Shown here: positions 13,426-44,069 of the stretch, piece after piece
Position numbering within the stretch: position 1 is the stretch's first letter
How the letters are laid out: each line of letters opens with the position of its first letter
Origin: Psilocybe cubensis
Lineage: Eukaryota
NCBI GenBank assembly: GCA_017499595.2
Contig: CM039001.1
Coordinates: forward strand, 3,844,001-3,908,000
Reading direction: 5' to 3'
DNA length: 64,000 nt
Program-made: the position numbers and the translations under genes
Notes under the pieces: generated by a model
What the model saw: the letters and a program-made list of their open reading frames with translations, nothing else
Database searches by the model: none
What the model was told of the DNA's origin: nothing

Positions 13426-13510
13426 TACCCGTCTAACGTCACTGTCCGCAGTCCCTAAGCCTAAGTCGTAAGTAAGAGGGAAAGGATACAAAAAATACCC
13501 TCGAAAAATC

Positions 13511-14461: not shown

Positions 14462-14544
14462 CAGAAGTTCGATGCCGCTCATGCCGTCGCCAAATTGGTG
14501 ATGCGCGTGATTGGTGGCACGGCATCAGCGGCATCAAACTTCTG
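14462..14544. repeat. 83-bp imperfect hairpin; copies at 16834-16916, 32368-32450, 41873-41955, 44717-44799; half-sites at 15844-15879 and 30369-30393
   Basis: CAGAAGTTCGATGCCGCTCATGCCGT ... ACGGCATCAGCGGCATCAAACTTCTG. Confidence 0.9.
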
Positions 14545-15288: not shown

Positions 15289-15315
15289 CCCCCCCCCCCC
15301 CCCCCCCCCCCCCCC
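15289..15315. repeat. Poly-C tract (27 nt)
   Basis: Direct reading. Confidence 0.95.
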
Positions 15316-17670: not shown

Positions 17671-18550
17671 CTATTCTGCATCATTGACTCCTGCGATGTT
17701 GGCAAGGGCAGCTCGAACCCGAGCGCTTTCCCTCCTCCCCTCGACACGACGATGTGCCTCCGCCCTATATTTCAGCTTCAACTTCAACACGCTATGAACT
17801 GGCCAACATTTATCGTAATCCCTGAGAACCGGCCAACGCCTAGTTGCCTACCACGTGTGTCAGCCTTGCTTTTGAGTAGTAAAACAAACTGGTAATTACC
17901 TCTTGACATATTGCTTCAATTTTTTCCTTTTTCTGAGATCTGTAGCTTTTACTCATATCCAGCGACCTCCTTGCTTCTCGGGTGATGTATCCCTACGGAC
18001 AAAATCAAGGCATCAGTCAAGTATGGTGAGCCACTATTGATTTACATACCACCATATCTCCTATATCTTCCTCAGACCAGTGGAAGTCGTCCCTCAGGAC
18101 TGTCTGGATATTAAACCCACCACTTCCCCGACGGCCAGGTTCTCCCTTTGGCTTCTTATACATTTCGCCTCCTGGGACCGGCGAAGTCACGCGAGGATGA
18201 GAAGGCCCCGCCACTTGGAGGATCATAGCGGGATCAATGGGTTGCCCAGGATCGACCTGCACATGAGTTGCTGGTGTTGCAATTGAAGGCCCGATTGGAG
18301 GGACAGGTACGGTGTCCTGGCCTGAAGGTCCCTCTGCCTGTATGAGCTCTTCAGGCCCTGGAGCTGCGACGGATGATGGCTGTGGCGCGGCTCCACGCGG
18401 AATGGCGTGTCGCTGTAGCAGCTCTGGAGTCCATTGGATACGAGGGGTAATCTTAGGTAGAGGTTCTTGACTGGGTAAGAGGAATTCGATCCGGGGAGTG
18501 ATGAGGGGGAGATGACGAATGTATTCGTGTGAAGGATGCGAGGATGACAT
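17671..18550 (-). CDS. Element-encoded protein of unknown function (3 exons)
   Basis: MSSSHPS...KKPKGEPGRRGSGGFNI...W, then spliced GYITREARRSLDMSKSYRSQ and RDYDKCWPVHSVLKLKLKY...DAE*. Confidence 0.7.
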
Positions 18551-19180
18551 GGTATATGTCGAGGAAAGATTGTGCGTTTTTCTTTTCATTCACTATTTGT
18601 AGTTTCGTATTCGTCGCTCAATCATCCCCTTTGTTTATTCTATGTAACGTCTCGCTCTTCCGCAGACACTCATCCTCAGTGTGCACGTCAAATCTCAGTG
18701 CACGTCAAATACGCACCAATTGTTTCGCAAAGTCGCTCTGCTAGTGTCAAAGATTGTTTGATCGATATCTTCTCACCGTAGGGGTAACCATTGATCGCTA
18801 CCTATCATTCTTTCATCAATATCTATTTCAGGGAGGGCTCAAGAAAGCATCATTTGTCTCTACAATGAGTGAAAACCCCAATGACAATATTATCAGACAT
18901 TGAGCCTTAGTTATACTGAAAATGAGCCTTAGTTCCAATATGAATACGGTTTGGCGAAAACGTGACAAAAAGGCGACACGACTCAAAGGGAGATGTTATC
19001 TTTGACGAGTTATCTGTGACTCGTCAATGGCCAGTGCCAAGGGTGTCACAATGACTTCCGGCGGCGCTGGCGGTAAAGTACTTAAAGAGCAGGAGTTATC
19101 ACCAGTCGTAAACGATTCAAACCATCAGCACCCGCCATGGCAAGTGTAAGCTTTGCATCCTGTAGTTGTCGCCCGCTGAC

Positions 19181-20966
19181 ATGTTCGATAGGAGAATTTC
19201 GCAATATTCAGAACATATAAGTTGCCATCCATTCTGCCTATCAACACTTTATTGTTCTCAGAGGACGCTAGACTCTTAATATCTGGCGGTGAGTCTTTTC
19301 CTATCGTCAGTGTTAGGTAATCTTTAATAAGAACAATATCATACTTAGGAGATGACGAGACGGTATATGTCTTGGACACAAAAACGGGGGAATGCATTCA
19401 AACTCTTGAGGATGACAACTGGGGACAAATCACCACAGTTGTCTGGGGACAACAGGAGTTACCCAACAGAGAAAACGGCGTTGTGTTATGCATTGGCACG
19501 GGGAGAGGGTGTTTGGCGTTGGTTGCGCTAGACTATGATGCCACCGAAGTACTTCTCTTTCTCGTTTCAACTTCCTGTGTCCTTACATTCTGTATATCAT
19601 TCCTTAGCCATTCCCAGTAGGCGCGAACACATCTCCTGTATTTGCGTTCAATGACTCTGTCGAGAAAATGGCTTTCGACAAGCTCAACAATCGATTAGCC
19701 GTCACAAGTCACTCCGGTGAGATCAAGGTTTTTGCAGTAAACAACAGTAAGTACTCTTGTCAATCGCCCTAGCACTCAAACCACACGAATATGGTACTCC
19801 TAGCTTCCTTGAGGTTATTGTGGGCCGATAATATTGGCAAAGTGATCACCAGCGGCCTATTCTTTTTTGGGGGGTCGAATCAAAGCCTCTTGACCATCGG
19901 GTTGGAGACATCGGAAATGTGTGTTGATGTTTCTGTTTCCTTGCAATATATTCACGAATTTCTACCACAGGAAGTGCCTCGATGCTTCAAAGAGAGGTCC
20001 GCCATTATGGACGAAACATTTGATTGGTGGGATGTATGTGCTACTTTATGGAAACCCTCCATTATTTTGATAAATTTTTGAATATTTGACAGTGGAAGCG
20101 CGTCTCTGTCCAGCGATGAAACGTTGCTTCTTGTAGACAACCTTGCTACCGGTAACTTCGACGTCTATCAGATCGCCGACAACTCCCCTCTTCGTTCCCT
20201 GCCAATAGGCTCGACCCGTCGATTTTCCAAGCAATGCGCCTTCTTTGAAGGTTCGAAAATAGCAGTTTGCGGCAGTGACACCAATAAAGTTTTCATTGTG
20301 GATGTCGCAAACAACTATGTTGTTCAGACACTGACAACATGTCGAGGTTCGACTTTTCGCTTACCCCCGCATTTCAGTTTATTAATTTGTGGACTTAGGT
20401 ACTTACATGACACAAACGGTCTGTGTTACTCCATCGTCATCGCGCAACGTCTTTGTCGCCGCCGCATGTCGTGGCTATGTATATATCTGGGAAAAATCAA
20501 CTCCTCAAGTCCAGGTAAATGTTCGCGCAGATGACCCTCCCCCTTCGAGGTACCGTCGCGTTGGATCCGCTATTTTGCCTTACCTGGGATTTGCTGTCGC
20601 TGGTACTGTCGGCCATTGGTTACCACACGCCTGGAAGGTGAGCAGCTTACAATCCTTTTGGCATTTGACAAACTAATGATATTCAAGTTGGGCCAAGACA
20701 TAATCATGAAGACTGCTGATTATCTCATCCAGAATGGCGCAGATAGGACGATGGAACTTCCAAGAGAAGCTGTTGACAAAATCTTCGAGATGGCGGCAGC
20801 GGCCTCGAGGGCTTTGGATATGTCGTCGGCACTGGTGTCGTCGAGGACTCTCGACATGGCTGCTATTGCTACAACAACATACACGGCTGCTACTGCGACT
20901 GCTACGATGACATCCCCTTCTGCTACCTCTCTTTTTGACATGGCAGCAGCAGCGGCTGGCCATTAG
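19181..20966 (+). CDS. WD40-repeat (beta-propeller) protein, multi-exon
   Basis: INTLLFSEDARLLISGGDDETVYVLDTKTGECIQTL, VEKMAFDKLNNRLAVTSHSGEIKVF, IAVCGSDTNKVFIVDV; GT-AG introns. Confidence 0.8.
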
Positions 20967-21114
20967 AATCTGCATCTGCGTATCCTTCTAATTTGAAACG
21001 TGCCCTAGATTTCTTTTGTACATTTATGATATCGGATAATGACATTTTGCTGAGTAACCTGACTACATGCATCGAAGCTATGATCTACACAGTTTTCCAT
21101 TATGTTCTCAGTGG

Positions 21115-24100
21115 TCAAAGAATTTGCCTATCTACAGGTCGGAGTCGGGATAAAGATACACATACAGCGACGTCTCTATCTTCCCATGGGATGATACATT
21201 TGGCAAAGTGTCCTTCTACAGCTGAAAAAGGAAGGACTTCGAGGATATCTTGGACGTCGGTTCCCCATAGTTTGGCACGAAAATGAACCCACGGGATATA
21301 AGGATCGTATTTGACCCCCGCTTCTTGGTATCGATTAACCACAAACCATATATCATCCCTAAGTACTTTTTTAGGAAACTTGAGGACATTCTTGATACGG
21401 TAGGGCACATTTGACGCATTGAGGACCCCGCTATTGCCTTCATGTACGTCCCAAGATGTATAAGATATCCGACCAACGCGATAACGGTTTGTATACATTG
21501 CCCGCGCGGGCACGGTTGTCACACCATACCGTAAAAATGCCCGAGTAATGTCCATCTTTAACACCACCGCACGTCGATCATCGTATGGGATGGCTTCTTC
21601 TTGAAGATCTTCTTCGCTTTCCTCGTCGTCTGTCTCAGTGTCATCGTCGGCCTCAGCATTTGCGACATCGATTGTCTCTGCTTCTCCTGCGAGTATGTAC
21701 TGTCCTTGGGGCATCACCAACTTGCGAAAGATCGGCCAACAGTCCCGAATAGCTTGTGGACATCCTGGTCTTTGAAAAATTGCCATAAGTTTGGACCTTC
21801 TGTGCCAGGAAGTCGCAATTGTTTCCTCGTACTCGCCTACTATAGATCAGTAACCATGAAAGAGCAGGCAACAGGTAAAGCAAATTACCTTGCTTGTAAT
21901 TTGTGGGAATTCTTTGCAGCATCCCAATCATACGTTCGAAGGGAAACGTCCACCAACCATGAACAGGCCCATATTCGATGATAAACTCCCTCATATGCAT
22001 AGCCATATGATGATTAGGAACACACTGGTAGCTTGGAAACAGCCTTGAAAGCTCGGAACGGTATTGTACCATCAAATTCAGGTATTCATTGGCCATAGCT
22101 GGTGATGCGACCCGGGAAGTGATGACAGATATGGCCTCAAAAAGAAGCATCGTGAGGCGCAAAAGTTCTCGACGTGTTTGGGCAGGTTTCGAATGGTCAA
22201 TTCCCGACCATATTCGGATGAGGGTAACTGGGATGTAAAGTGCTGCCGCAATGCGCCATTGGTCTGATTTGAGTTTTCCACTCTTTGCGGACATCGACCA
22301 GGGTAACGACGAGACCCATGACGGTTTTACCATAGCTGCAATGTCTCGTCGGATGGATTTCATGTCTTCTGCTGTAAGTATCTTTCCCTGCTTGCCATCC
22401 ACTTCTGAAGTAGCCTGGCTTGACTGTGACTGGCCGAAATTTTTAGTTGTTAGAAGAATTGAAAAATTTAACAACGTACGGATCTTTCTTTACGCTATTC
22501 ACCGCGTATTAAACTATCAGATTGATGTTGAGGTAACGACGATGCAGACGTACCCATTGAACAAGCATTTGGGCCAGATCTTCTTTCTTGACTCGCATCA
22601 TACCATTTAACGTGTCCCGGCCACGATTGGTGATGGTAGAGGGTATACACCCCAGATGTTTACCAACAAAAACAAGGGCTTCTGCTGCGGTCTTCTTTGC
22701 CAACTCGTTTGCTACGTCGGCATCTTCGATTGGAAGAGGCTCTGCCAACCATTTTCTGATGATGCGTATTCCTTTTTGACCAGACTCTGAGGTTGGCAAA
22801 GGATTACTTTCATTGCCCTCAATGTTTTGTAATATAACGCTATCGCTCGATATAGGTGTTTGTTGTTTCTTCTTCTGCTTGGGTAAATCAGAACCGTCAC
22901 CGAGAATGTGCTGAAAATGCTCTTTGATGAGTCCAAGAAAAAGGTTATGCATCGGGTCTACAACAAGGCTCATGGTTGGCCGATAATAGGGCAATCGATG
23001 AAATTCTGACGTGCGCAATCCGGATTTGTCGAAAAGGCTTGCAGCGGCCTTTTCGGAGGGGGCTGCCTGGTATTTCCAGGCACCATCTCGACATTCGTCA
23101 TCGGTGCGCCATGTCCATTTTTCATAATCGAAGTTGTTGAATGTATGCACAGTTTTACTACACCAGCACATCGAACAGAAATATTCCTGATTGTATGAAG
23201 AAAATCCACCAGCCTTCCGTGCTGCAGGAAGATCGGCGATGATTGCAAGAAGAGCACAAAGAATAATGCGCCCCATAGCGTAAAGAGCGGTGCGCGTAAA
23301 AAAAACACCCACCCAAAACAGCAGGAAAGTGTCAACAATAGGGCGGAAGTATGGGTTTGCTGCTTCTAGACTGGGTTCATTGGGACCCGGAATAATACCC
23401 GCGAGAAAGATGTTTTCAGGTTTATATCGAGTAGTTATGGGAAGGTTGAGGCATGTTAATGCGATAACTCCAATTGAAATCTTCTTTCCAGCCGTAAGAT
23501 TACGCAAAGGATTAAAGAAATCAAAGCCGAGTGAAAATAGATAACGTCCAGTAGTTTCATTTCCGGATACACCGAAAAATTTCTTATCGCATCCCTTGAA
23601 GTTACGGATGCTGGAAGACTGAAAAATATCGTCCATGCGCCCATTTTCTTGAACAGGTTCGAACGTTTTCTTCCAAGCACCGTCCATTGCTTCCTCGTAT
23701 CCTCGACGCGATAACATGCCACCAAGCCAGTCCTGGAAATCGAATGATAGGAAGGGTTTGATGGGTACATTAATGGTCTTATTGCTGTATCTCTTTGGCC
23801 GGACAAGAAGTTCCCCACAACGATTACCGAACTTCCGGGCATTGCATCGTTCGCGATAGGTAGAAATATCGTCCTCTAGGGTTGGCTTGTAGATTTCATT
23901 GCACTTTGGACAAGCGGCATACACGATGAACTTCGAATCAATGTCAAAACGCTTGATTGCCGCTCGAACGTCTAGAGGAAACGAACGAAGAACTTGCTCG
24001 AGCCAACGAGGAAGGATTTTGTCGACAAAGATAGCCTCTCCCGTTCTTTGAGCGATATATTCGCACATGGAAAAGACAAAATAGCACCCACGTCGAGGAA

Positions 24101-24948
24101 ACCTCAATATAGCGTAGCAAGAAACAACCATAAGGTTGATCATCTGCATCGCGTCAATTATCCATGGGGGTAGCCAAGGCATACTGTATGCATAGGGAAG
24201 GAAGGGAAGGAAGTGGTGCCCTAGGGTCGATAGTTGATAAATAGTTCATCGAATACAAAGTGAAAAATAAACATGCTCGCTCACTTGAATCGTATAAATT
24301 AGGTACGCTATCCTGAATAGAAACTCGCTGGCGAGATCTCTTCGTTTGCCTCTCCTTCCATGTTGCCTCTACACGGTCTACATCTTCATTAAGTCGCTCG
24401 ATATTTTGGTGTGCATCATGTCGCAAAGATTTGATCGAGGCTTCCTTGCGCAAAGGACCGGATTTCGTAAAGTCTAAATCTCTCGATGCGTTGGAATTAA
24501 GAGCTCGTACTTCATGGCAAAGTTGAATTGCCTTATCAATTTCCCCATTGCTGAAATATTTCTCTCCTGAGATGTCAATGGTGTTGATTTGTTGGGCACG
24601 AAGTCTGGTATTGTCTAGAATATCTGCAATCAGAGCCACGATTTTTTTCTTCTGTTCGTGCTTGTACTGCACTTCCTTTTCCTTGATCGTCTCGGTGTCC
24701 GGGTCCTGAACAGATAAAAGTTGCATTGCTTTCTCCAAGGTGGTTTCGACCTTCTCCATGGCCCTTTGCTGCTCAAGGATCGCCCGTGATTCAAGATTCC
24801 TCTTCATCTGACCCACGCTTTCCTCGTGTTGGTGCTTTTTATATGTAGATGGCGACAATTGAACACCTGGCTGTCCTGTGACAGGATCGCGTTTCGCGCC
24901 GCACCCATGCACAGTGCACAGGCAAAACTTGGCTTTCCAAACCGGCAT
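21115..24948 (-). CDS. CACTA/EnSpm transposase (Transposase_21/Tnp2 family), apparently intact, 1202 aa
   Basis: Exons 24948-24285, 24220-22554, a 15-nt exon near 22490, 22429-21889 and 21836-21115 total 3609 nt in frame. Motifs FSLGFDFFNP, CLNLP..RYKPENIFLAGIIPGP.EP, DLPAARK, CSMCWC, VDPMHNLFLG, PNHH...H, FPFERMIGMLQ. Confidence 0.92.
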
Positions 24949-25479
24949 AGGTCTGTCGAATCAACCAGAATATCGATATCGATGTGGTAACGGTTAAGCA
25001 ATGATAAGAGAAATTTTACCACATGAGAAATTATTATGCGATCACGCAGCTGCAGCTGCAGCGGAGGCAATGACCCGGAGGAACTCGATAAGGTGATGTC
25101 GCCGAAACGCCGAGGCATAACAAAGGGACTGAGCGATGAAAGACTAGCGTTTTCTTTTAAAGCGCTTGTTCAGGAACTTTCTTCATTACCCTCACCTTCC
25201 AAACACCCAGCACAACTGAGTCTAGTCGTCCAACTAAACTATGTCTCAACCTTCCAGGAGTCGTAGTAACAGCAAATCATCCGTAACAGGGGCTACCCCA
25301 ATATATACCGCGATGCTTTCCCGCGAACACTATATAAAGGCTGTTAGCGCGAGATCAAGAAAGAACGCAGGGGTAAGTTGTCTAAGGATTGATTGAGGCG
25401 CATTTTTCAATGATACATTACCTTCTGTTAGAAGTCTGCTTCGAGGCAACGCCGGTCTCCTGAAGCAGGGGACGCTAGC

Positions 25480-26800
25480 ATGGTGGCAGGGCCATCGAGA
25501 TTCCAGGAAGTTGATGATGACGACATGGACCAATCCTTTGAATCCAATTCAACTGCGTTAGTCACCAACACCTTGACGTCCAACAAAACCCAGGCTGCGG
25601 TGCGCTTGAGTATAATGATTTATGTATTTCAATCTGACAGTACATACTTTCACCAGGGGAGTATTCAAAGGGCCTACACGGCCCCAATGGTCTCGTCCTT
25701 TGCCGAGAACCGTGAGGTTTCCACCGAAGGTCCATCGACAGAGATTGCGAATGTGTCGGTGGATGCTGGGAGAGACAATCTTATGACCAGACGTCCTCCT
25801 ATACAGGTGGCCAACGTGAATGCTATATTAGCCATACTCCCAGGCCGGAATGAATTGTTTCCCGCCATTCAACATAACCGATCTATTGCCAATGGATCGT
25901 ATGCAGCATCCACCAATGTCCAGAATGATCGAGGCATAACCAATCAACAAAGCGGAGTGGATGCTGGGATAGACCAAGTGATCATTAGTCAAGTACGCCA
26001 CGATCATACGCCGTCGACTTTAGCACTAATCAACTACTTTCGATGAACAGGATGAATATGACAGGCTGAAGTCCACTTCAAATGCTGCAAGGTTGAGAAG
26101 TGATGATATAATAGCGACCGTAAGAATAATGAAATGATTCATAAGGAGGCGACTTACATCTGCATCCATTTTCCAGGTTAGAGAAGTTCAAGCCGACAGG
26201 GAGCGCATTGCCGCCCTTGAGCGAGGTCTAACCGAGCAGGGAGAGACGTTTAAATGGGTTAGTTTGGTTTCTTCCCTCACATAACCTTATGACGTTTATC
26301 CGAGACCGTCACACTTTTTAAACAATTATATTATAGGAAATTGACAAAGCGAGCAAGATGTATACTGAGCTCTTGAAGGAGAAGGTGGCCCAGGAAAACC
26401 TGTACCTTGAAACGAAGAGGGTAAATTTACAATATGACCGATATCGATAATGTTAATGACAAATTTAAATAGGAAAATGACAGGTTGAAGGAGCTGGAAG
26501 AGACAGTACTTGGATTCGCAAAATGCACAATTTGCTATGAATTTATGGAGCAAATTTGCGTGTAAGCCTTTTCGAGAACTGTGTTTACAGATCAAAGTGA
26601 CCTCAGAACATTATCACAGCTTTGCTTGTGGTCATGTTTGCTGCAACGATTGCAGGACAAAGCTCGAGTTATTTGACACACTGAGGTGCTGCTTTGTATG
26701 CCGCACATTTGTTCCAGATGAACAACCCCTCTCGCGTTACCATCCCCTCAGCCAGATTCTGTCCAATGTAAAGGATAAGGCTAATGCAGAGGGTGTTTAG
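25480..26800 (+). CDS. Multi-exon protein with C-terminal RING-type zinc finger
   Basis: The last exon has ELCLQ...ACGHVCCNDC...CFVCR (C3HC4-like). Upstream exons are low-complexity or coiled. Exon structure only partly resolved. Confidence 0.65.
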
Positions 26801-26944
26801 AGTAATCCTACTCCCTCTGCACGCTGCAGCTTCTGTTCGAGGTGATCATATAAGTATATAGCAAATGAAGAATGTCATGTTTCATACCAGAATTTATATT
26901 ATCTTCACAAGACGAGGTGATGGTAGAGAAATACCAAAAACAGG

Positions 26945-29900
26945 TCACAGTATCTTTTTCTTGTACTGGTCTTTTAACTGAGTCATAACATTGGAGTTGA
27001 GGTCTCTGTCTTTCTTGGACTCGGGAACTGAACACAGGAAATCCGTGCTGAGTATAAATCGCTCGCCAGTTAAAACGTCTACACGATCTTTAGATCGGGT
27101 GACTACAGCGACCAAGACAGTTGGATTATCCGAGGTGCCTTCATGATGAATGCGACGAACGAATTTCCCGCAATGTTCCCCCTTGATAACCACTAGAGGC
27201 CCATTGTCATGTATTCGATTTGCATACTTCGGAGTGACCCAAGCGGGGTCCACCATAGTCCATGAACTGTACTTTTTGCACCTGAGTACGAGGTTGTTTG
27301 CATCCCAAACCGTTGAGGCGACTAATGTTTTATTGCTGAACTGTCCGCCGTTGACTACCACATTCAGGCTGATGTCCACCAGTTTGGGGTTTAAGAGAAC
27401 ATGTTCGCACACAGAAGAGGAAGTCGTATGACAGTTTGTTTCAGATGAGGAGGAAACAGATGTAGAGACGTCTGATAACGCAAGACTTGTTGGCGAATGA
27501 GCAGTTGGGTCAGGTGTCCTTGAGGAGGGGTCCCAAGCTGGAGTGATAGATTGCGGTGTACCGATGGGTGTCCTTGAGGAAGGATCCCAGGCTGGAGTTG
27601 CAGTGGGTTCTGAGTACATCGGTGTGCCGCTCGCTGACGCAATCGTTTGCGGTACGCCAGGGAGAACGCGGACGTGCTTCATGGAAGACTTAGGTATAGG
27701 ACGGAAAAATTTTGGCCCAGGATCAAGGAAAAGAACGAGCTCATTGAACGTCCTTGCGTACAAGTTAGACAGAGGGTACATGCAATGACAACACACTTAC
27801 GAAAGTTCGACGACATCGTCATAGTCCACAACGATTGTTTGGAACGGTGCAAAGGGATTAAAACGGGTGAGTTGAATAACGAGCTGCAGTCCGGCGTTGT
27901 CTGTATGATGAAGGACGTCTTTGATTCGTCCAGTCTCACCCTTGCGTGGGTGAAGATGCTTCTGTATAATGACCTCTAAACCAGTCCATGGGTGTCTTAA
28001 AAACTTGGTGTGGACTGGGTCTGACTCCGATAATAATGTCACATCGACAAGAGGTAGGGGCTCAGTAAATGAAGTGTCCAAGAGATTGACGTGTACCGCA
28101 AAATGCTGTTGAAAGGTATAGCCACGTTAAGAGAAAAACCGGTGAATATGTCAAGCTGCAAATTTACTCACTTCCACAATCTCAACCTTGTTATCATCTC
28201 CTACCCCAGAATTAAACTGGTTAGATGCTGCTGTTGTACTGACCACAGCGCCCTGGTTGTACGACTCCTGAGCTGCTGTTGGTTTTCCTACTCCTGTGAC
28301 ACACGAACTCCCTCCCGGCATCGACATTTCTTCTTCATCTAACGTTGCTGCTGATTCATCCAAAGTTAGAGCGATATCCGAATGCACCATTATACCCCCT
28401 GGCATCATTTGCGCTTCTACCGCCGTCCCCAGATCTGTCTCCGCCGAACCTTTTCTCAGATCATCGTTCCCTGTCGGCACGGGATATTGTTCTTTTCCGT
28501 TGGTGGGCGTCGAAGATGTTTCAGCATTTGTTTCCACAATGGAAATGCGACCATGCACCGAACTTTTCGTTATTAGTGCATGGTCTCCATGGATTCCAAC
28601 GACCCAACCTCTGTGATCGAAATAGGGGCCGCTCACAACTCGAACGAATTGCCCGATTTTTGGTGACTTGAGAATGTCTAGCCATGTTCCCCTAACACTG
28701 TAGCGGATTTCACGTTCACCTTCGATTGTTGATTGTTCTGCTTCAACGTCGTATGTGTCCAGCTTTTTCAGCACTGCAGGTTCCCACTTTGCAGACCGAT
28801 TCGCAACGTCGGGTGTACGAAAAAGAACCTCCTCTTCCAGTCCTAAGCACCATTCCCGAGGACGTGGCATACGCGCTCGCATTATGTCGGGATGATTGGT
28901 GCTCCTAAACATGGAGAAGTGGGAATACGGAATATCCATGACGGAATTTGCGATGGAGGTATAGTCGAAATCCTTTTCCAACAGTCCATGGTCAAACTTG
29001 AGAAGTCCAAGCGTGTATGATCCATCCGCATTGCGAATAATGGGAGTAGAAATGAGTTTGCGGGCTTCTTCAGGGTCGAAAAGTTTTGCTGGGGGTACTA
29101 GTACCGATGACTTTCTCTTTTGTGACTTTGCAGATTGCGAATTTAGCCGAGGAATGAGAAGAACCTGAGCGCCCCAGGAAAAAGTCGCTGAGATCAGTCC
29201 AACGTCTCCTTTGTATATGCCTTTCTTAACCAAAACCCAGGTCCCAACCTCAAAATCCTTCTTGACATCCCTCATCGTAAGAAGTTCGTGCTGATGGTTC
29301 CGATCCACTATTTCGCGCTTGACTCCAAGGTGGTTACGAAGGATTCCGGGCGTGGACAAGAGCAGATTCACGAGGGCTGGATCCATGATACCTTCAACGT
29401 AGATACTTCCGCGTATAGAGCCGCGAGTAAATGCGGAACGAATATGGTGGATCTCCCTTGCGGTCTGGAGAAGGGATAGGACAGCTGCATCCTCAGAGCC
29501 GATCTGCAAAAGTTGATAGAAAAATAATCAAGGGATAGGTATTCAGACTTACCCGACATCCAACCCTCCAGAGAGGATAGTCATTCTCAAGCGGAAGACG
29601 CGCAATCTTCTCCTGGAGCATGGTTATCCTATCTTCCTCCTCCAAACGTATAACCGGACGTGGTTGACGAGGGCCCTTTGCTTGAGCCTCCAGGCGAGCC
29701 AGTAGTTGGTTAAATGAATCCTCCTCGCTGTCATCTTCTGGCCTATGGAACGCCATAGAGCCTATGTGATCTTCCCCGTCCACTTCCGCTCCGTCGTTAA
29801 TGAAGGCATCTGTAAAGACAGTCAAATCAAGTCTATCGCAACATTCTGAACAGCTCGCCTTCAAGGTCCCGTTCTGCAGACGTAAGCTGCTCATCGTCAG

Positions 29901-30050
29901 AAAGCTCTCCATCATCAGCTACCTGTGCCTCCGTGTCCAGAAATTGGCGGACGTTCCTCATAACCTAGGGAGAAAAAATCATGAGTATCAAGATGCTTTG
30001 AACAGAAATCAAGCAAGCCTACCCGCTTCATCCTTTGGACTGTGTCGTTC
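26945..30050 (-). CDS. Spt5-like transcription elongation factor paralog (NGN + KOW + short CTR); start approximate
   Basis: AFINDGAEVD; NGN-like LWRVGCRIGSE..IRSAF....RGSIYVEG; KOW-like GTWVLVKKGIYKGDVGLI and VLLIPRL..PPAKLFDPEE; GQFVRVVSGPY; two TPAWDPSSRTP repeats; terminal LVVIKGEHCGK. Confidence 0.85.
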
Positions 30051-31374
30051 GATGGAAATGAACAAATTTAATTAGATGATCAGTTACCACTCTGACTTAG
30101 GAATCGGAATCTATATGACGTTGGTGTGCTCAGTAAGTTTTTTTCATCTTCATTACGATGGTGATCTCATTTTCATTTTCCAACTATCCAAATCTATCAC
30201 TGAACTACGTGTAATAGTACATATTCTCGTTCCGGTTCAACGCCAATGCAGAATCCGTGGCGTATCTTACCTGGAATGACAGCCCCTGAGCAACGAGGAG
30301 ACAAAACGGTATGGTGGAGAGAAGAAGAAAAAGAGCGTGGGAATGGGTGGGGGGCTGTAGAAATGGCGCAGAAGTTCGATGCCGCAAATGCCGAAACATA
30401 TCACGTGTTAATGTTCCTCGGGCATCCCGGGTGTGGATGAGGGTTCAAAACATTGAGAGCTGAGCGTCGTGCTGAAACTTATCAATGCGGAAGCGCTCAT
30501 GTGAACACTTAAGCTCGTATCCTGTTAAAAATGCATGGTGAAACCTATTGTAGGGAACCTAGACGATGGAGCGACACGAAGTAGTCGGCTCGTCCTGAAT
30601 GAAAAATTCATAGAAAATGGACATAATAAATTATTGACATGACCGTTGAGACAACTCATCCAGAATAAAATTTAGGGGCAGAACCAAGGGGCACACCGTT
30701 AGTTCCATCAAAAACCAAGGCACAAGTTATGTATGGCGTACCCAGGTCTATGCTACCGCGAAACTAAGTATTTCGTTGCTTGCATATTCAAAAGTACGTA
30801 CTACAGTTTACAAACAGTGGGAAATCAGCTACTCTACAAGAGTCTCAGGTGTTTGTATTTCCGAAGGAAAATAAGCACATTCAAATAATCTTGTAGTGAG
30901 CGGCGACCTTAGCATTTTGTGAGCCCAATAATTCGAGTATCAACGGTAGATATATTTGCGTGGAAAACGGTAAAAACAGACGAGGCCGTACTTCCAAGGA
31001 CCCGCAGAAATAAGTTAAGGAGAACATCCTGGTTCATTGATCCAATCATGTAGATAGGGTCACCATGACACTGTAATAGAAGAAGCGCGGTTGTAAAAAT
31101 ACAGGGCCAAGTCCTCAATAACGAATATGTGAAACATACAAATTAGGCACCTCGTCGTCGAAGTCGACAGATTTGCGGGCCACGTTGCGGTGTCTACCAC
31201 AACCTTTGCGATAATAAACATGGATAAGCTCGTACAGTTAGTGAGCAATGCAGAGCGGTGATGAAGCTCTACACATAATATGTCACTGAACATCTCGTGT
31301 TCGGGAGAGTAAATTCGGCTTACAGTACGTGTAAAACAATACCTCACGGCGATTCGAGTTCGAGGGTGAAGTGG

Positions 31375-32990
31375 GTGCTGGGCAATGGCCGTGTTAGATT
31401 GTTGAACGAGATTTTAAACCACCCACTGGCAGGACAAATTGGGGTTGGAAAGTCACCGAAGATTATTATATCAAGTAGAGCTTGGGTTAATAAATTTAGT
31501 ATATCAATTGCAGATATTGATGAAGCGACATACTTCATAGATTGAAGAGAATTATTAGACGGGAACATCTCGCGTGTTCGAGAGAGTAAATTTGGCTTAT
31601 AGTACGTGTAAAACAATTGAGACTGGTGCCGCTCGAATACCTGATAGAAAAAAGACGGAGCCAATCTATAGTTGCATAAGCAGGAGACTCGACGGGAGCC
31701 ATGTGCAAATCCTGTATATTCCAAGTCCCGATATCGTGAAATCCAAATTAAAACGGCAACCTGCAAAGAGGGTACCTCGCAGACCGGGTGCTTACAGTAG
31801 GCAGCGTCGTACAAAACATAAAGTTATGGCAGCATTCAACGTTCAATTCTTGAATGTAGGTGGGTGCGTCGTTGAATAAGTGAGGTCTGTAAAGCAATGA
31901 GGCGGCACATGTGCTGTAGAATATGTTTCCTGCACTGATAGCAAAGATGATTCCTCACCTATGTTTGTGACGCTCGAATACGGGTCTGGCAGGCGAAGAG
32001 GCGGCGGGTGTGCTGTAGAAGGTGTTCTTGGCTTGTGTTTCCTGCCTGATAGTAATAAAAATACGATTCGCACCTATGTTTCTGCGTAATTCACTATCCA
32101 AATGAATTGTAGTTCCTCCTCGTTCTGTGTCGCTCACCCGACTATTTCCTCTGCCCTTCCAAGCCGGGTCTATGTCACTTGAACTAAAATTGTATTACTA
32201 GAGTACGCAGCTAGCTAAGTTTATGGTATTAGAGTCTACACTAAAGTGCTACTACTACAGTAAGCTCGTATGCGAACCATCTCTACGTACGACGTGCTTC
32301 ATAGGAGTGAGTGTTGAGAGAGAGGTGGAAAGGCGTCACACCGTCACAAAATCGCCATGATACAGGACAGAAGTTTGATGCCGCTGATGCCGTGCCACCA
32401 ATCACGCGCATCACCAATTTGGCGACGGCATGAGCGGCATCGAACTTCTGCGGTACTTGTTGGCGTGCTGGCCATATTCTCACGCTTTCTTCTTCTTCTG
32501 TTCCAACCATGCTCATCTAGCGGGTGAAGTAGCACATATAGACCGAGTAGCGCTGCTATCCATGTAGGCAGTCTAGCGTAGTGTACCATGTAAATAATAC
32601 AAATACTACTACAGGGAGCGAAATGGGGACCGAATGATATTGTGCGTGAGGTGTAATCGAAGTGCCAACACAGATGTTAAGCACGTATGAGATCTCTACG
32701 CTCGCCGTAAGTAACACAATTTTCTGCACAGTGTTGTATATTGGGTCAGTCATTCAGCGCAGATACAGGTCAGCGAACAAGACATCGCAAAAGTTTCGAA
32801 GCATGTCTGGTAAGTTGCAACTCCAGTGTACCCGCCGTTTGCTAACCATGCGATTAGACGCACACGATTCTCACTCAAGTCGTTCGTTTCACCATTTCCT
32901 TCCTCTTGTTCTACACAGGTATGTTTCGTTCTGTCTACCTAATTTTCTGTAGTAACTTACATAGTATAGCCCATCTCCTATCCCGAACAC
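31375..32990 (-). repeat. ~1.6-kb direct repeat of 43723-45339 (also an inverted copy of 13922-15191)
   Basis: Same ORF set offset by ~12,348 nt (e.g. 31574 vs 43922, 32662 vs 45011). Confidence 0.93.
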
Positions 32991-33732
32991 CAATGATCCG
33001 CACTATGCGCTATTAAGCAAACAAGATCCCGGACTTGTCATCGTTCGGATACCGGTGTTCCTTCCAACTCAACTCCACAACCCCTTTCGCACGGATAGGG
33101 CCCTCTGGATGGGAATAGGTTATCAGAATTGCATTGCATGATGTGTAGAGCGCGTATACGCAGACGTATGACTGGGTAAGTCTGTTTACGTCGCATGTCC
33201 CATGGCATTCGCTGATATACCTGACAGACCCTGATTCCCATATCCTCCATGCACATTGCGCAGGTGGATGACATTCGCATCCTTCTCTCTGTGCAGAACG
33301 AGCATCGCTGAGAGTGCACGATAAAATACCAATCAAGTAAGTAGCAGGTTCACTTACCTTGACGCTTCCACTGATTTGCCACATCCAAACTTTGGCTAGC
33401 AAGTCGTCGAACCTGGATGGCCAGCGAGGGGTCCATCGTCGCCCGACACGAACGCATTCAGTCGTGGAGACGTGTAGGCTCGAGCGGGAAACTGGGGCAA
33501 CATTAATGTACGTGGCTGAACGAAGACGGCTGCGCACAGTACTCACTCCTCACACAGAGTTGCAACGCCCGTCCTTTGCTGTGTCCTCTCCATTCCATCG
33601 GTTGCATCAACGTTTTAGGGCAAACCATGACATATACAGAAGGTCATCATTTCGCGAGAGTACGTTTTTCGTCTTCTGTCTCTCTTTCTTAAGCACCAGG
33701 TTTTGATCTACAACTTCTCCTTAGCACGCTAT
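32328..33732 (-). repeat. Left arm of a nested ~1.4-kb inverted repeat
   Basis: Reverse complement of 40615-41995. ORF 33038-33319 (-) equals ORF 41004-41285 (+). Small indels. Confidence 0.93.
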
Positions 33733-34380: not shown

Positions 34381-35935
34381 CTACTCCCCGAAAAATGGTT
34401 TTGCATCTTTCATTTTCAAGAGCGCTATATCATAACGAGATAAGCAGGCCCGCCAAGAAGAATAGTAATAATTTTCTGGACGCTGATCTGGAGCTGGTTG
34501 ATAACCTTCCCGTGCGGATTGTAGTCTTCTGCGTTTAAGGGGTCGGCTACCTGGTCGTCTGGTTCCATTGACGCTTGTAGCCGGTCGCAGGCTATCAGCG
34601 ATCTTTAATGGAGTCAGGAGCTTTGGGTTGCGCCATTGCGTCAAAAGGACGACTGTGGAATCTTCTCCGTCTGTTTCGTCTTCGCTCATTCCATCTTCGC
34701 CAAGTGTCAAGACGACATCTGCAATATCATGACGACCGGCATCTATGCAGTTACTATAACGGTCCACATACAACTTCTCCGACATTAGCAAAGAAATTGT
34801 GTAAGTGTAAGGAAACAGATATTGACATACATTACGTTGCCTAGTGCGGCGCCGCTTCCTGCGATTGGCATTTAGACGTTCCTCCCTTACGCGATCGAAA
34901 CATTGTTCGCTGGTTTCTCCTGGCCTTGGAACGATGGAAATCAATTTCTCACGAAACATTTGCACTCTTGCCATGAAGTGTTCCTTGATTTGATCGGCAG
35001 TAGCATTAAGATTGCTGTGTAATCGCAAGAACTGTTCAGCAAAGAGGTCCGCAAGATAAGCGTTCCATTTCACTTTCACTTGGTCGAAGTGAAGTTGAAG
35101 AGGTTCCAATGGTGGGGGGTCTCGTAGCGAATTCTCGAACTTATCTACTTCGGCTGGTGATGCAATGTGAATGGAATCCATTATGAAGATGTCGTCATCT
35201 TCGGATATTCCGAGGAGATATTGTTGTAACTGCCGGCTGGCATTCTAAAAAATCATATTCAGTCAATGGATGATGTGGAGGCGAAAAGAATACTACTAGA
35301 ATAAGAACTCTGTCCACTGAGCGGGGACGAACAGGACCAGCTTGCTTGTAAGGAGAGTAAGGTTTCCTGTTTGGAATCCTCCTACGAGGGGTTGCAGGTT
35401 GTGTATTTGCATTAGACCGAAGTTCTTGCACGTCCAAAACGACGCCTCTCACATCACTCGACAGAGTGCTTAGCGTATTCAATATTCTTTCTTGAAAAGC
35501 ACGTTCAGCAGCAGATACTGAGGCAACAGGAGGAACAGGAGTGACAGGAGGCGTCGAAGAGAATACAGAGTGAGGTGGAACCACAGAGGGGTCAGCGACC
35601 GTTGCCGGAGTATCTGCATGGAAGGCTGTCGAAGCCTCGACTCCTCGCACATCGTCTCGACCAGATCTGGGTATAGCACTGGAAGGTGGAGGTGGAGATT
35701 GATGTGTAGCTCTACCTCTTCGATAGTGACCCGGCTTTGAAAATCTGTTGGGTATTGATGGCCCTGGATTGGAAGAAGAGGCCAGGTCACCGTCTCGGAC
35801 GGGCGAAGAACGGTTCGCAGAGGTAGAGAGAGTGGGAGTAAATTCCGTTTGGTTAAAAAAATTTGAAAAGGTGGGTCGTTCTGCTGAATTTTCTGGCTCC
35901 ATATTTACCTGCAGGTCGCCGTTCCTATGGTTCAT
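34381..35935 (-). CDS. Element-encoded protein of unknown function (may be the 3' part of the upstream coiled-coil gene)
   Basis: A long Pro/Ser-rich exon, then exons with basic RRKRRRTRQR, acidic GMSEDETDGED, WRNPKL and PENYY..SW. Confidence 0.7.
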
Positions 35936-39772: not shown

Positions 39773-40338
39773 ATGGTTTCTGCACTTGCTAAATATATCC
39801 CACGGACTAGGGTGAGCAATTTCGCGAGGATACTTGACGTTCTTCTTAAGGATTCCAGGACACCTCGCTATCATTAAGAGCGCGCTACTATGGCGCGCAC
39901 GCAGAAAGACCCGTGAACAAAGCGATACACACCCTTCAGAACACAAGCGGCAGAAGCCCCCGTCTCGACCTGGTCATGGGAGGGAAACGCCTGCAGCCAT
40001 ACATCCACGATGCTATTGTTTCAATTTCGAATAGAGGGAAGATTGCGCAGTTTCATGTCTTTGTCAAGAACCATTGCAGGCTCCCCCCTAACAGAAGCAT
40101 TTGGAGATGGAGAGTGCGCAATTGGAAGGGTGATATTGTCGTCTTTAAGAAAGGAAAACACCAAGAATTGGTAAACCTCGGGGGGCGCGACAGAATTTTA
40201 GCTGATTTTGCGACCAAAAGGTGAGGCCGGATGCCAATATGAAGTTTGACGACACTAACAACCCCTAGTTTCATTCAATCAGTGAATCAAACCAGGCCAT
40301 TCAAAATCCCGAAAAACCTGTTTTTTGTAAAGCATTAG
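39773..40338 (+). CDS. Small three-exon protein of unknown function
   Basis: Splicing gives MVSALAKYIPRTR/DTSLSLRARYYGAHAERPVNKAIHT...FHVFVKNHCRLPPN...WKGDIVVFKKG...FVKH*. Confidence 0.65.
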
Positions 40339-42360: not shown

Positions 42361-42639
42361 TTAACGCATCCTTGACCTACGAGAATGTTCGTCACGATAC
42401 TTGTAAGGACAATCAAGAAAAACACTTACAGCGAGGTATGGCCAAAATATTAATGAGTGATCCACCTCCAAGTGTTCTCCCTGTTGCGAAAGAAACCGCG
42501 AGCGTCGGATGAACTTGATTTCTTCCGGAGGGTTTCGCGGAACACATAGGGGTGAGAGCTGAGAAAGTCGAAATTCGATTCTCGGAGTGATGAGTGGAAG
42601 TGGCGCTTTATTGAACATTTTTGCTATGAGAGGTGCCAC
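42361..42639 (-). pseudogene. Possible remnant paralog of the 17671-18550 gene
   Basis: Shares LPLITPRIEF with that protein's N-terminus. The rest is not obviously conserved. Confidence 0.4.
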
Positions 42640-44069
42640 AACTGGGTTTGGGGCAGTCTGTAAGTTGCGATGGAGGTGTATGCAATCAAGGATTCACGAC
42701 GCTTTATAAGAAGCAAGAACAAAGGCAATCTCCGCGACAAAATATCCTGACCAATCTTGACAAAGGTATTAACTAAATGAGCGCTTTATTCGCTCAACAC
42801 CCATCTGAACATAGAAAATGACCTACCAATGAGATATATAGAAGCTAGAGAAGGTCATGTATTTCTACATACCCACACTTACCCCGGAATGCGAGATTTT
42901 GGGAAGGTGATTTCATGATTTCAACTGGCGGAGATCATCAATGATCAATGGGATAATATATAGTTTTAATATCCACTGTCGGTCATACCGCCATAACAAC
43001 GTTTATCGTCATTATGACGGCGCCAAAGGGCGTGATTACGTGGCTGCATGAGCGACATTGGAATTGTTTGCTATGTCAAAGCGCTCCTGCGACAATGCCA
43101 TCTTTATCCCCTTTCCCATAACTCTTCGACAAAGAGAAACAAGATAAGATGGATCTTTGTTCAGAAAACATTTAAAAGGTCAATAGGTTAATATGTACTC
43201 AGTACGATATTTCCTGCTGTAAGAAACTTCATGATGCCCGTGACGAGGGAAGGCCACGATGTAATTCTGAAGCATATCGTCATCGTTTCGTGGCTGATCC
43301 GTACTAATCATTCCTACAGGTCGATAACCACAGTGATGACAATGACTATCAGAATCAGAAGCAAATGATCGAAGCAAAGTTGAAAGAACTAGTAAGTATT
43401 TTAGAACATCATTTTATTAAATCATGACAAAACTTTGCGATGACAGATTTCAATGATGCGGGCTGTATTTTGTGACACCCATGGTAGACGCGAAAACGAC
43501 GATGAAGACGGAAAAAATAGTGAACAAGACGAGCAAGACGAGGACTTGGATCCTTGGCCGGCGAACAGCAAACACTCAAGGCGCGTTCAATGGCGGCTGG
43601 GGCGCAAAACTAAGCGATCTCGAAGGAATTTCAGGCGCAGAATGAGGGGTGCTTCGCGCTCTCCCAACAAGCTCCGCGGGTCCGACTCCGACTAGTGGGC
43701 AGACAACAAGGTATGGGGTTGTGCGCTGGGCAATGGCCGTGTTAGACTGTTGAACGAGATTTTAAACCACCCACTGGCAGGACAAATTGGGGTTGGAAAG
43801 TCACCGAAGATTATTATATCAAGTAGAGCTTGGGTTAATAAATTTAGTATATCAATTGCAGATATTGATGAAGCGACATACTTCATAGATTGAAGAGAAT
43901 TATTAGACGGGAACATCTCGCGTGTTCGAGAGAGTAAATTTGGCTTACAGTACGTGTAAAACAATTGAGACTGGTGCCGCTCGAATACCTGATAGAAAAA
44001 AGACGGAGCCAATCTATAGTTGCATAAGCAGGAGACTCGACGGGAGCCATGTGCAAATCCTGTATATTC

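What the first reader, a model, noticed from the sequence alone, without database searches (positions are those of the whole stretch)
17671..30050. Compact five-gene core: unknown ORF, WD40, transposase, RING, Spt5-like
The genes alternate strand (-,+,-,+,-) with gaps of only ~150-630 bp and look intact, unlike the degraded fragments in the arms. WD40 + RING + Spt5-like suggests a nuclear or ubiquitin-related accessory module serving the transposon rather than host metabolism (inference).
Basis: partly seen in the sequence, partly recalled or inferred. Interest (0 to 1): 0.7.

Follow-up and report, generated by a model that had tools for sequence, protein, structure and literature searches.

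The report
Mushroom transposon gene cluster with Spt5-like insert
Five intact genes sit tightly together in a Psilocybe genome: three are the usual gene set of a cut-and-paste transposon family, and the other two (a RING protein and a very divergent copy of the transcription factor Spt5) are wedged inside that transposon's gene array.

Summary
Five intact genes alternate strand at 17671-30031, with gaps of 144-531 bp. They are a small Pro-rich ORF, a WD40 propeller, a Tnp2/CACTA DDE transposase, a C3HC4 RING protein and an Spt5 paralog. Protein matches name Psilocybe cubensis.

The five are not one uniform module. In 80 metagenome loci encoding related transposases, the WD40 family recurs in 16 and the small ORF in 14. 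Where both occur they lie head to head in 11 of 12. Two further families, encoded in the window at 34.4-35.4 kb and 39.85-40.2 kb, recur in 24 and 6. RING and Spt5-like recur in 0 of 80.

The closest locus, L001, has the same order and orientation as the window: small ORF, WD40, transposase, 34.4-kb family. L001 has 350 bp between the last two; the window has 9.5 kb, which holds RING, Spt5-like and a local repeat. So these two genes lie inside the transposon's gene array. In P. cyanescens an Spt5-like gene again adjoins this transposase family.

Read depth in an independent isolate shows a single copy. I found no terminal repeats or target duplications. Cargo status and any service to the transposon remain inference.

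The parts
17671..18586 (-). Small Pro-rich gene ('unknown ORF'), three exons. It carries conserved short motifs (HLPLITPRIEF-type near the N-terminus, KPKGEPGR..GGYN-type before the first intron).
   Evidence: ORF and exon reading. Family alignment A3. Homologs in 14 of 80 transposase loci. Head to head with the WD40 gene in 11 of the 12 loci that hold both. No Pfam family.
19027..20966 (+). WD40 beta-propeller gene (annotated protein P0142, 500 aa). In 12 of 14 family members a hydrophobic stretch of about 19 residues follows the propeller.
   Evidence: P0142 maps here. (WD40 30.9 bits against cut-off 27). (hydrophobic stretch). (family in 16 of 80 loci).
21115..24948 (-). Tnp2/CACTA-type DDE transposase, four exons, about 1215 aa. 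Candidate catalytic D242, D338 and E442 and the CxxCxC cluster are present in the 578-aa exon.
   Evidence: Transposase_21, 36.2 bits. (DUF4218, sub-threshold). (homologs at 38-55% identity in Agaricomycetes and metagenomes). (conserved columns). (introns).
25480..26800 (+). RING gene, six exons, 338 aa: a low-complexity N-terminal part, short heptad-like (probably coiled-coil) exons by eye, then a C-terminal C3HC4 RING split by the last intron.
   Evidence: gene model and motif. (zf-RING_5, E 0.037 on the last exon). (only weak PDB hits, nearly all to RING E3 ligases). 0 of 80 loci.
26945..30031 (-). Divergent Spt5 paralog (P0001, 948 aa): acidic N-terminus, NGN, KOW domains, two copies of a CTR-like repeat, and a further C-terminal region conserved among P0001-P0004.
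   Evidence: 100% match; paralog P0002 at 74%; P. cyanescens 41%; Panaeolus 31%. (NGN 24.7 bits against 22.4; KOW 31.8 against 22.3). (S. pombe Spt5 only E 1.4e-17; plant RDM3/KTF1 E 2.2e-11). (0 of 80 loci).
34384..35437 (-). Canonical companion gene of this transposon lineage (called the o34381 family here). In relatives it sits 1.0-2.4 kb upstream of the start of the transposase match, on the same strand. In this window it lies about 9.5 kb from the transposase gene.
   Evidence: 24 of 80 loci; by my count, 20 of the 24 are upstream on the same strand. (collinear with L001 1188-2292). (confident model, pLDDT 86, no clear PDB fold match).
39850..40221 (+). Second companion ORF (the o39850 family). 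Its homolog is fused to the N-terminus of the Spt5-like gene model of P. cyanescens.
   Evidence: P0003 residues 13-117, 49% identity, E 1.7e-33. (6 of 80 loci).
42364..42693 (-). Fragment of a second copy of the small-ORF family (it carries the PLITPRIEF motif).
   Evidence: Seen in the ORF translation. Not scored statistically.
31377..33732 (.). Copy B of a local repeat, R1. The other copies are at 13915-15241, 40615-42009 and 43725-45346 (98-100% alike, alternating orientation), with a diverged copy at about 16249-17300. Copy B lies inside the 9.5-kb stretch between the transposase and its usual upstream companion.
   Evidence: Read depth in 31079-31600 fits two copies, so R1 is not a high-copy family.
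30370..30393 (+). Single copy of a 24-nt motif, about 340 bp upstream of the Spt5-like start codon. Elsewhere the motif occurs as inverted pairs inside every R1 copy.
   Evidence: 12 matches; none in 100 shuffles. (none in the 80 loci).

Best explanation
The region holds one old, single-copy, rearranged copy of a multi-gene CACTA/EnSpm-type (Tnp2) DNA transposon lineage of Agaricomycetes.

The lineage's canonical gene set is a DDE transposase, a gene of unknown fold just upstream of it (here at 34.4-35.4 kb), a head-to-head pair of a small Pro-rich protein and a WD40 propeller, and often a fifth small ORF (here at 39.85-40.2 kb).

The RING gene and the Spt5-like gene do not belong to it. They lie in a 9.5-kb stretch that separates the transposase from its usual upstream neighbour. 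That places them inside the element's gene array, as an addition restricted to this lineage.

Shown: the genes are intact; the canonical set recurs and co-diverges; the array is collinear with L001 apart from the extra 9.5 kb; the region is single copy.

Inferred:
- The transposase cuts and pastes in the way of DDE enzymes.
- The small ORF and the WD40 protein are accessory factors, possibly for DNA binding and scaffolding.
- The Spt5-like gene, with the RING gene beside it, was captured by a Psilocybe branch of this transposon family and travelled with it. I put this last step at about 45%.

If it is cargo, the most likely role is to help or redirect RNA polymerase II elongation on the element's own genes. 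That is speculation.
For: - Transposase family: Transposase_21 above cut-off; 18 and 119 homologs, mostly 35-55% identical, including four long paralogs in Gymnopilus dilepis and three fragments in P. cyanescens.
- Intact genes.
- Companions in the 80 loci: WD40 in 16 (15 of the 31 with at least 3 kb of flank, 9 of the 14 with at least 7 kb); small ORF in 14; o34381 family in 24; o39850 family in 6. All five families lie together within about 10-12 kb in L007, L014 and L064.
- A Gymnopilus gene model (P0008) fuses the transposase with the small-ORF family.
- Co-divergence of WD40 and transposase: Mantel r 0.754, 0 of 5000 permutations as high, n = 17.
- Collinearity with L001 in order and orientation, with 350 bp in L001 against 9.5 kb in the window between the o34381 gene and the transposase.
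- Spt5-like next to this transposase family in a second species: P0003 is locus tag CVT25_015172 and P0124 is CVT25_015171, both on a contig of 14830 bp. The same P. cyanescens gene model starts with an o39850-family segment.
- The Spt5-like family is highly diverged: 74% within P. cubensis, 41% and 31% to the two other species, and only E 1.4e-17 to S. pombe Spt5.
Against: - No terminal inverted repeats with a target-site duplication were found in the window, nor in L001 or L034. The element's ends are therefore unknown.
- Read depth in run X13 is flat at about 160 across 15100-31600, with no empty-site joint. There is no evidence of recent movement or of more copies at 88% identity or higher.
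- In the L010/L011/L012 family only about 4.0 kb is shared, which is the transposase alone. So the transposase gene can recur without its companions.
- Companion order and orientation vary between loci.
- RING and Spt5-like are absent from all 80 loci. The Spt5-like family has only 4 known members, so this absence may reflect taxonomy rather than a lack of linkage.
- No transposase hit came from Panaeolus cyanescens, the species of P0004.
- A second fragment of the small-ORF family at 42364-42693 leaves room for remains of two elements flanking host genes.
- The Mantel correlation could also arise from shared host phylogeny.
Confidence: 0.55

Rival explanations
1. The five genes, or the whole 17.7-40.2 kb stretch, form one giant CACTA element that moves as a unit. 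WD40, RING and Spt5-like together form a functional nuclear or ubiquitin-related accessory module for it.
For: - The genes are tightly packed and intact.
- RING and Spt5-like lie between canonical element genes.
- Spt5-like adjoins the same transposase family in P. cyanescens.
- Each canonical family occurs once in the window as a full-length copy, apart from one extra small-ORF fragment. That fits one expanded element better than two.
Against: - RING and Spt5-like are in 0 of 80 related loci, while WD40 is in 16. The three do not behave as one module.
- No ends were found and the region is single copy.
- No RING homolog was found anywhere. No database search was left for it.
- There is no expression or interaction evidence.
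Confidence: 0.25
2. RING and Spt5-like are ordinary, fast-evolving host genes that happen to lie in a transposon-rich, locally rearranged island. The Spt5-like gene could be a host factor for silencing-related transcription, in the manner of plant SPT5L. Remains of one or two elements flank them by chance.
For: - The window is heavily rearranged: a 10.7-kb inverted duplication and five R1 copies.
- There is an extra small-ORF fragment at 42.4 kb.
- The Spt5-like gene is annotated as a normal gene, and its cluster holds 10 member sequences.
- An in-frame repeat-number polymorphism suggests the gene is kept open.
- The stretch is held nearly complete (0.96-0.99 of sampled words) by the 9 best runs, which come from 3 studies.
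Against: Linkage to the same transposon gene families is seen in two species at only 41-57% protein identity. The position falls exactly between two genes that are adjacent in L001 (350 bp apart) and, in 17 of 80 loci, separated by 1.0-2.4 kb from the start of the transposase match (my count).
Confidence: 0.15
3. The whole cluster is a domesticated, immobile former transposon kept by the host for a cellular function.
For: It is single copy, intact, present in all holder runs, and has no TIR.
Against: The family is multi-copy and highly diverged in other Agaricomycetes. Its gene order varies, and the transposase recurs alone. That is transposon behaviour. The runs listed as holders were selected for holding the stretch, so their agreement says little.
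Confidence: 0.05

Closest known systems
CACTA / En-Spm (CMC superfamily) DNA transposons; Pfam Transposase_21 (Tnp2) with DUF4218
   Same: The DDE transposase is of this family. [quoted passage not shown] More than one protein is encoded. The two-protein TnpA/TnpD system of maize En/Spm is recalled, not checked here.
   Different: No CAC..GTG termini, 3-bp duplication or subterminal repeat arrays were found. The companions are separate genes on both strands rather than alternative splice forms. The companions (WD40, a small motif-bearing ORF, and two families of unknown fold) were not mentioned in the papers I could search.
Fungal EnSpm/Plavaka/KDZ transposons that carry a TET/JBP dioxygenase gene (Kojima 2025, PMC12730594; Iyer et al. 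2014, not held here)
   Same: These are Agaricomycete DNA transposons of the same broad clade that carry a chromatin-related passenger gene thought to help the element escape silencing (abstract and passages).
   Different: No TET/JBP gene is present here. The candidate passengers are an Spt5 paralog and a RING protein. The window's transposase matches Transposase_21, not Pfam Plavaka. Only its relative P0005 has a sub-threshold Plavaka hit.
Spt5 paralogs dedicated to silencing-related transcription: plant SPT5L/KTF1/RDM3 and Paramecium Spt5m
   Same: All are divergent Spt5 copies that keep NGN and KOW domains. P0001 matches the plant RDM3 chain 8hyj_W at E 2.2e-11 over NGN-KOW1. Both known paralogs are tied to transposon or non-coding transcription (abstracts listed: PMC3111484, PMC5416832).
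   Different: The known paralogs are host genes and are not linked to a transposase. The protein here keeps CTR-like repeats that align with those of S. pombe Spt5. No function is known for it.
Canonical transcription elongation factor Spt5
   Same: The domain order is the same: acidic N-terminus, NGN, KOW domains, C-terminal repeats. Public records name it SPT5.
   Different: Similarity to solved Spt5 chains is weak (best E 1.4e-17). There are two paralogs at 74% in one species, and only 41% identity within the genus. That pattern is not expected of the essential, conserved gene. The canonical P. cubensis SPT5 could not be fetched for direct comparison.

Membership tests
CACTA/EnSpm (CMC) transposon | Tnp2-type DDE transposase (Pfam Transposase_21) | tested here: met
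   36.2 bits against a cut-off of 28.6, E 4.8e-9; homologs carry PF02992.
CACTA/EnSpm (CMC) transposon | [quoted passage not shown] | tested here: met
   D242, D338 and E442, plus C357/C360/C362 and H433/H443, fall in invariant or nearly invariant columns of 20 sequences. Which columns are catalytic is assigned by analogy, not by structure.
CACTA/EnSpm (CMC) transposon | Terminal inverted repeats (5'-CAC..GTG-3') flanked by a 2-5 bp target-site duplication | tested here: not met
   the scan found only 5 pairs, which by their coordinates lie in or beside the local R1 repeat or the arms; nothing convincing in L001. The 260-nt inverted pair in L034 is specific to that locus. Old ends may be decayed beyond recognition.
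CACTA/EnSpm (CMC) transposon | Several copies in the genome, or insertion polymorphism | tested here: not met
   flat depth across the core in run X13 and no empty-site joint; the 9 best holder runs hold 0.96-0.99 of the sampled words. The whole genome was not available.
Spt5 family | NGN domain and KOW domains | tested here: met
   Spt5-NGN 24.7 bits against 22.4, and KOW 31.8 against 22.3, in P0001.
Spt5 family | C-terminal repeat region | tested here: met
   P0001 residues 711-768 align with the repeat region of S. pombe Spt5 (8qsz_Y, 939-1049). Pfam CTD is sub-threshold (E 0.012).
Canonical (orthologous) SPT5 | Single, highly conserved ortholog | tested here: not met
   a 74% paralog in the same species, 41% identity within the genus, and a best PDB match of E 1.4e-17.
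WD40 repeat propeller | WD40 repeats above Pfam's cut-off | tested here: met
   on the annotated protein P0142: WD40 30.9 bits against 27, ANAPC4_WD40 30.3 against 22.9. The raw exons alone were sub-threshold. The structure was not predicted.
RING (C3HC4) E3 ligase | C-x2-C ... C-x-H-x2-C-x2-C ... C-x2-C spacing of the eight metal ligands | tested here: met
   the motif is complete once the 58-nt intron at 26562-26619 is removed. Pfam on the last exon alone gives only E 0.037. Ligase activity cannot be tested here.
Plavaka transposons | Pfam Plavaka transposase domain | tested here: not met
   no Plavaka hit for the window's transposase exon; only 16.3 bits against 26.3 in the relative P0005.

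The most novel reading that the evidence does not exclude
A branch of an Agaricomycete CACTA-type transposon family captured a copy of the RNA polymerase II elongation factor Spt5, together with a RING ubiquitin ligase, and carries them as cargo between its own genes. The transposon-borne Spt5 paralog would steer or protect transcription of the element, or interfere with host silencing. It would be a selfish-element counterpart of the host Spt5 paralogs that plants and ciliates use in transposon control.
Probability: 0.25. Interest if true: 0.75.

Novelty: new variant of a known kind. Interest (0 to 1): 0.5.

Why it matters
Fungal CACTA/EnSpm elements are usually catalogued by their transposase alone. 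This analysis shows a recurrent, co-diverging set of four companion gene families: a WD40 propeller usually followed by a hydrophobic segment, a small motif-bearing protein paired with it head to head, a confidently folding protein with no match among solved structures, and a fifth small ORF. I found none of these in the searchable literature. They are concrete candidates for transposition cofactors in mushrooms.

The Spt5-like gene is the more unusual piece. Spt5 paralogs have been described only as host genes, in plants and ciliates, and there they serve transposon-related non-coding transcription. A highly diverged fungal paralog that sits inside a transposon gene array in two Psilocybe species would, if it is cargo, be a new kind of passenger gene. 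It is a testable one: binding to Spt4 and Pol II, and the effect on element transcription.

If it is instead a host gene, it is still an undescribed fungal Spt5 paralog family.

Tried and rejected
- Whole-genome search of the window's own assembly: not held.
As a result, synteny around P0002 (P. cubensis paralog) and P0004 (Panaeolus) could not be examined.
- Earlier findings of this scan: nothing by place or by sequence.
- RNA evidence: no RNA holder was listed, so there is no statement on expression.
- Runs X10-X12: only scattered low-depth pieces at 99% identity or more. They were not informative.
- TIR/TSD scans gave no ends: window, L001, L034, ends of the L010/L011/L012 unit.
- The 24-nt motif of the R1 repeat as a possible subterminal repeat: 12 copies in the window but none in the 80 loci. 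Only a 27-nt match lies on the right flank. I rejected it as evidence for element ends.
- CpG depletion as a mark of methylated transposon DNA: observed/expected is 0.75-1.12 everywhere, with no contrast between genes.
- Predicted complex of the WD40 propeller with the small ORF: no verdict. It counts neither for nor against binding.
- Fold search for the o34381-family model: no Foldseek match at E <= 0.001. The best VIA-align Z was 5.2, within the noise range the tool states.
- PDB sequence search with the RING exon: only non-significant hits, 7 of the 8 to RING E3 ligases. It gives no support for a Bre1-like assignment, which was an idea from recall.
- P. cyanescens model P0003: its C-terminal coiled-coil tail has no match in the window.
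- Phlebia gene model P0012, which combines WD40 and transposase Pfam domains: it was not matched by the family-specific WD40 profile, so I did not count it.
- Literature: no paper holds Spt5 + transposase + Agaricomycetes. WD40, Spt5, KOW and RING do not occur in PMC12730594. WD40, KOW and 'additional domain' do not occur in PMC5751038. Searches found nothing on such companions. Iyer et al. 2014 (PMC3918813) is not held and may bear on the companions. Supplements of PMC12730594 (transposon sequences) were not opened.


Full report
**What is there.** The window is fungal. The largest exon of the last gene (28151-29527, minus strand) is 100% identical to a 948-aa UniRef protein of Psilocybe cubensis named 'Chromatin elongation factor SPT5' (P0001). 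No whole genome is held for the window.

Stop-to-stop ORFs, Pfam scans, mapping of annotated proteins and splice-site analysis give five intact genes:
- a small Pro-rich gene, 17671-18586 (-);
- a WD40 gene, 19027-20966 (+);
- a Tnp2/CACTA transposase, 21115-24948 (-);
- a RING gene, 25480-26800 (+);
- an Spt5-like gene, 26945-30031 (-).

The gaps between coding ends are 440, 148, 531 and 144 bp. The pairs are head to head, tail to tail, head to head, tail to tail.

On raw exons, WD40 and RING were only sub-threshold. The annotated WD40 protein P0142 passes Pfam's cut-offs. The RING shows a complete C3HC4 ligand pattern once a 58-nt intron is removed.

The transposase can be joined from four ORFs by three consensus GT-AG introns, giving about 1215 aa. 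It keeps the conserved D/D/E and Cys-cluster columns of a 20-sequence alignment.

**Context in the window.** Two 10.7-kb arms (4554-15241 and 44015-54719) are inverted copies, 99.7% alike. They carry pieces resembling host genes (mitochondrial carrier, peroxin-3, importin) and LINE-type endonuclease pieces. They are a segmental inverted duplication or an assembly artefact, not transposon ends.

Between the arms, a local repeat (R1, 1.3-2.4 kb) occurs in alternating orientation at 13915-15241, 31377-33732, 40615-42009 and 43725-45346. These copies are 98-100% alike. A diverged copy lies at about 16249-17300. R1 holds an inverted pair of a 24-nt motif. The motif occurs 12 times in the window and in none of 100 shuffles.

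**Copy number and mobility.** Raw reads of an independent isolate (run X13) cover 15100-31600 at an even depth of about 160. Only the R1-related bins are raised. There is no joint that would mark an empty site.

The listed indels whose length is not a multiple of three lie outside the coding sequences. A 3-nt deletion lies between the transposase and RING genes. A net 54-nt in-frame change lies in the Spt5-like repeat region.

The 9 best holder runs, from 3 studies, hold 0.96-0.99 of the sampled words of 18000-27999. That list is selected for holders. A scan for CA..TG termini with a 2-5 bp duplication found nothing outside R1. The block is therefore single copy, with no recognisable ends.

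The transposase exon has many relatives in Agaricomycetes and in metagenome or run assemblies, mostly at 35-55% identity. Four long paralogs are in Gymnopilus dilepis. None is annotated in P. cubensis.

With an alignment of 20 of them I fetched 80 metagenome loci that encode relatives, with up to 10 kb of flank on each side. Some loci are near-duplicates of each other. Profile searches of their six-frame ORFs gave:

| Family | Loci with a member (of 80) |
|---|---|
| WD40 | 16 |
| Small ORF | 14 |
| RING | 0 |
| Spt5-like (profile of P0001-P0004) | 0 |

The WD40 family is in 15 of the 31 loci with at least 3 kb of flank, and in 9 of the 14 with at least 7 kb. Its matches run collinearly along the whole profile, so they are not generic WD40 hits.

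In 11 of the 12 loci that hold both the small ORF and the WD40 gene, the two lie head to head, 190-440 bp apart, as in the window (my count). L046 is the exception.

WD40 and transposase distances correlate across 17 pairs (Mantel r 0.754; 0 of 5000 permutations as high). Shared host phylogeny could contribute to that correlation. One Gymnopilus gene model (P0008) fuses the transposase with the small-ORF family.

Testing other ORFs of the window against the loci showed two further families. The ORF at 34384-35244 (the o34381 family) has relatives in 24 of 80 loci. The ORF at 39850-40221 (the o39850 family) has relatives in 6 of 80.

By my count, 20 of the 24 o34381 relatives lie upstream of the transposase on the same strand. 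Of those, 17 end 1.0-2.4 kb before the start of the transposase match. All five families lie together within about 10-12 kb in L007, L014 and L064.

The canonical gene set of this lineage is therefore transposase, o34381, small ORF with WD40, and often o39850.

The o34381 protein folds confidently (pLDDT 86) but has no convincing match among solved structures.

**Where RING and Spt5-like sit.** The closest locus, L001 (about 50% protein identity), is collinear with the window in order and orientation: small ORF, WD40, transposase, o34381. L001 has 350 bp between the o34381 gene and the transposase. The window has about 9.5 kb (24925-34383). That stretch holds the RING gene, the Spt5-like gene, 1.3 kb with one copy of the 24-nt motif, R1 copy B, and a 148-aa ORF that had no Pfam hit and no match in the 80 loci. 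RING and Spt5-like therefore lie inside the element's gene array, as an addition that L001 lacks.

In P. cyanescens the Spt5-like protein P0003 (41% identical) carries locus tag CVT25_015172, and a transposase of this family (P0124, 48-57% identical) carries CVT25_015171. Both are on a contig of 14830 bp. The P0003 gene model begins with an o39850-family segment (49%, E 1.7e-33).

This is a second, strongly diverged instance of an Spt5-like gene among this element's genes. No transposase hit came from Panaeolus cyanescens, the species of P0004. The surroundings of the P. cubensis paralog P0002 could not be examined.

**What the Spt5-like protein is.** It has an acidic N-terminus, an NGN domain (24.7 bits against 22.4), KOW domains (31.8 against 22.3) and two CTR-like repeats that align with the repeat region of S. 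pombe Spt5.

Its best match among solved Spt5 chains is only E 1.4e-17. It matches the plant Pol V factor RDM3/KTF1 at E 2.2e-11. There is a 74% paralog in the same species, and only 41% and 31% identity to the two other known members. It is a highly diverged paralog, not the canonical SPT5. I could not fetch the canonical gene for a direct comparison.

**How it most likely works.**
- *Shown:* the canonical gene set recurs and co-diverges, and the transposase keeps its conserved catalytic columns.
- *Inferred from the DDE/CACTA family:* cut-and-paste transposition.
- *Inferred from anatomy only:* the small ORF (two conserved short motifs in an otherwise variable chain) and the WD40 propeller act as accessory factors. 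In 12 of 14 WD40 family members the propeller is followed by a hydrophobic segment, which is weak in the window's own protein. A predicted-complex job for this pair gave no verdict and counts neither way.
- *For RING and Spt5-like,* I commit to capture by a Psilocybe branch of the element, at about 45%. The likeliest role is in Pol II elongation on the element's genes, but this is speculation.

**Novelty.** The kind is known: a CACTA/EnSpm transposon, and fungal DNA transposons that carry chromatin-related cargo (Kojima 2025, PMC12730594; abstract and passages read). The companion set and the link to an Spt5 paralog were not found in the literature I could search. Iyer et al. 2014 was not available. 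I rate the finding a new variant of a known kind, of moderate interest. The decisive data, which are genomic context in other assemblies and expression, were out of reach here.

Noticed in passing
window 4554-15241 and 44015-54719: A 10.7-kb inverted repeat, 99.7% alike, encloses a 28.8-kb spacer. The arms carry pieces that look like host genes (Mito_carr, Peroxin-3, importin) and LINE-type endonuclease pieces. It is either a very recent inverted segmental duplication or an assembly artefact.
   Followed up: partly
window 13915-15241, 16249-17300, 31377-33732, 40615-42009, 43725-45346: Local repeat R1 occurs in alternating orientation. Four copies are 98-100% alike and one is diverged. Each copy holds an inverted pair of a 24-nt motif. 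The motif occurs 12 times in the window, in none of 100 shuffles, and in none of the 80 loci. Read depth fits local copies only.
   Followed up: partly
window 34384-35437 (-): This is the most frequent companion of the transposase family (24 of 80 loci). The predicted structure is confident (pLDDT 86): helical with a small beta part. There is no Foldseek match at E <= 0.001, and the best VIA-align Z is 5.2. It may be an undescribed domain.
   Followed up: yes
window 36314-38881 (-): An 856-aa open frame with a coiled-coil look. It has internal DNA repeats spaced 486 and 672 nt apart, up to 98% alike, and only a weak tropomyosin-like Pfam hit. It has no relatives in the 80 loci.
   Followed up: no
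window 15290-15316: A run of about 27 C lies directly inside the left arm boundary. Reads of run X13 appear cut there.
   Followed up: no
window 15531-15768: A 238-bp stretch is skipped by 74 reads of run X13. This is about half the local depth, so it is an insertion/deletion polymorphism within that isolate.
   Followed up: no
window 27550-27612: 11 reads of run X13 replace 61 nt with 7 others. The net change of 54 nt (18 codons) is in frame, in the repeat region of the Spt5-like gene. It is a repeat-number polymorphism.
   Followed up: no
window 15100-31600: Of the 234 places where run X13 differs from the window, 154 are C>T or G>A and only 35 are T>C or A>G. The asymmetry is unexplained. 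It may come from reads of deaminated paralogous copies. Most of these places were not listed.
   Followed up: no
window 42364-42693 (-): A second, partial member of the small-ORF family (PLITPRIEF motif) has no WD40 or transposase remnant beside it.
   Followed up: partly
L010 8968-12991, L011 5678-9711, L012 607-4573: Three metagenome contigs share only about 4.0 kb (86-88% alike), which is the transposase gene alone, with unrelated flanks. In that sub-family the transposase recurs without its companions. No clear terminal repeats are visible at the ends of the shared part.
   Followed up: partly
window 1625-1963 (+): A cytochrome P450 exon (Pfam p450, E 2.2e-17) lies outside the left arm. 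It is probably ordinary host sequence.
   Followed up: no
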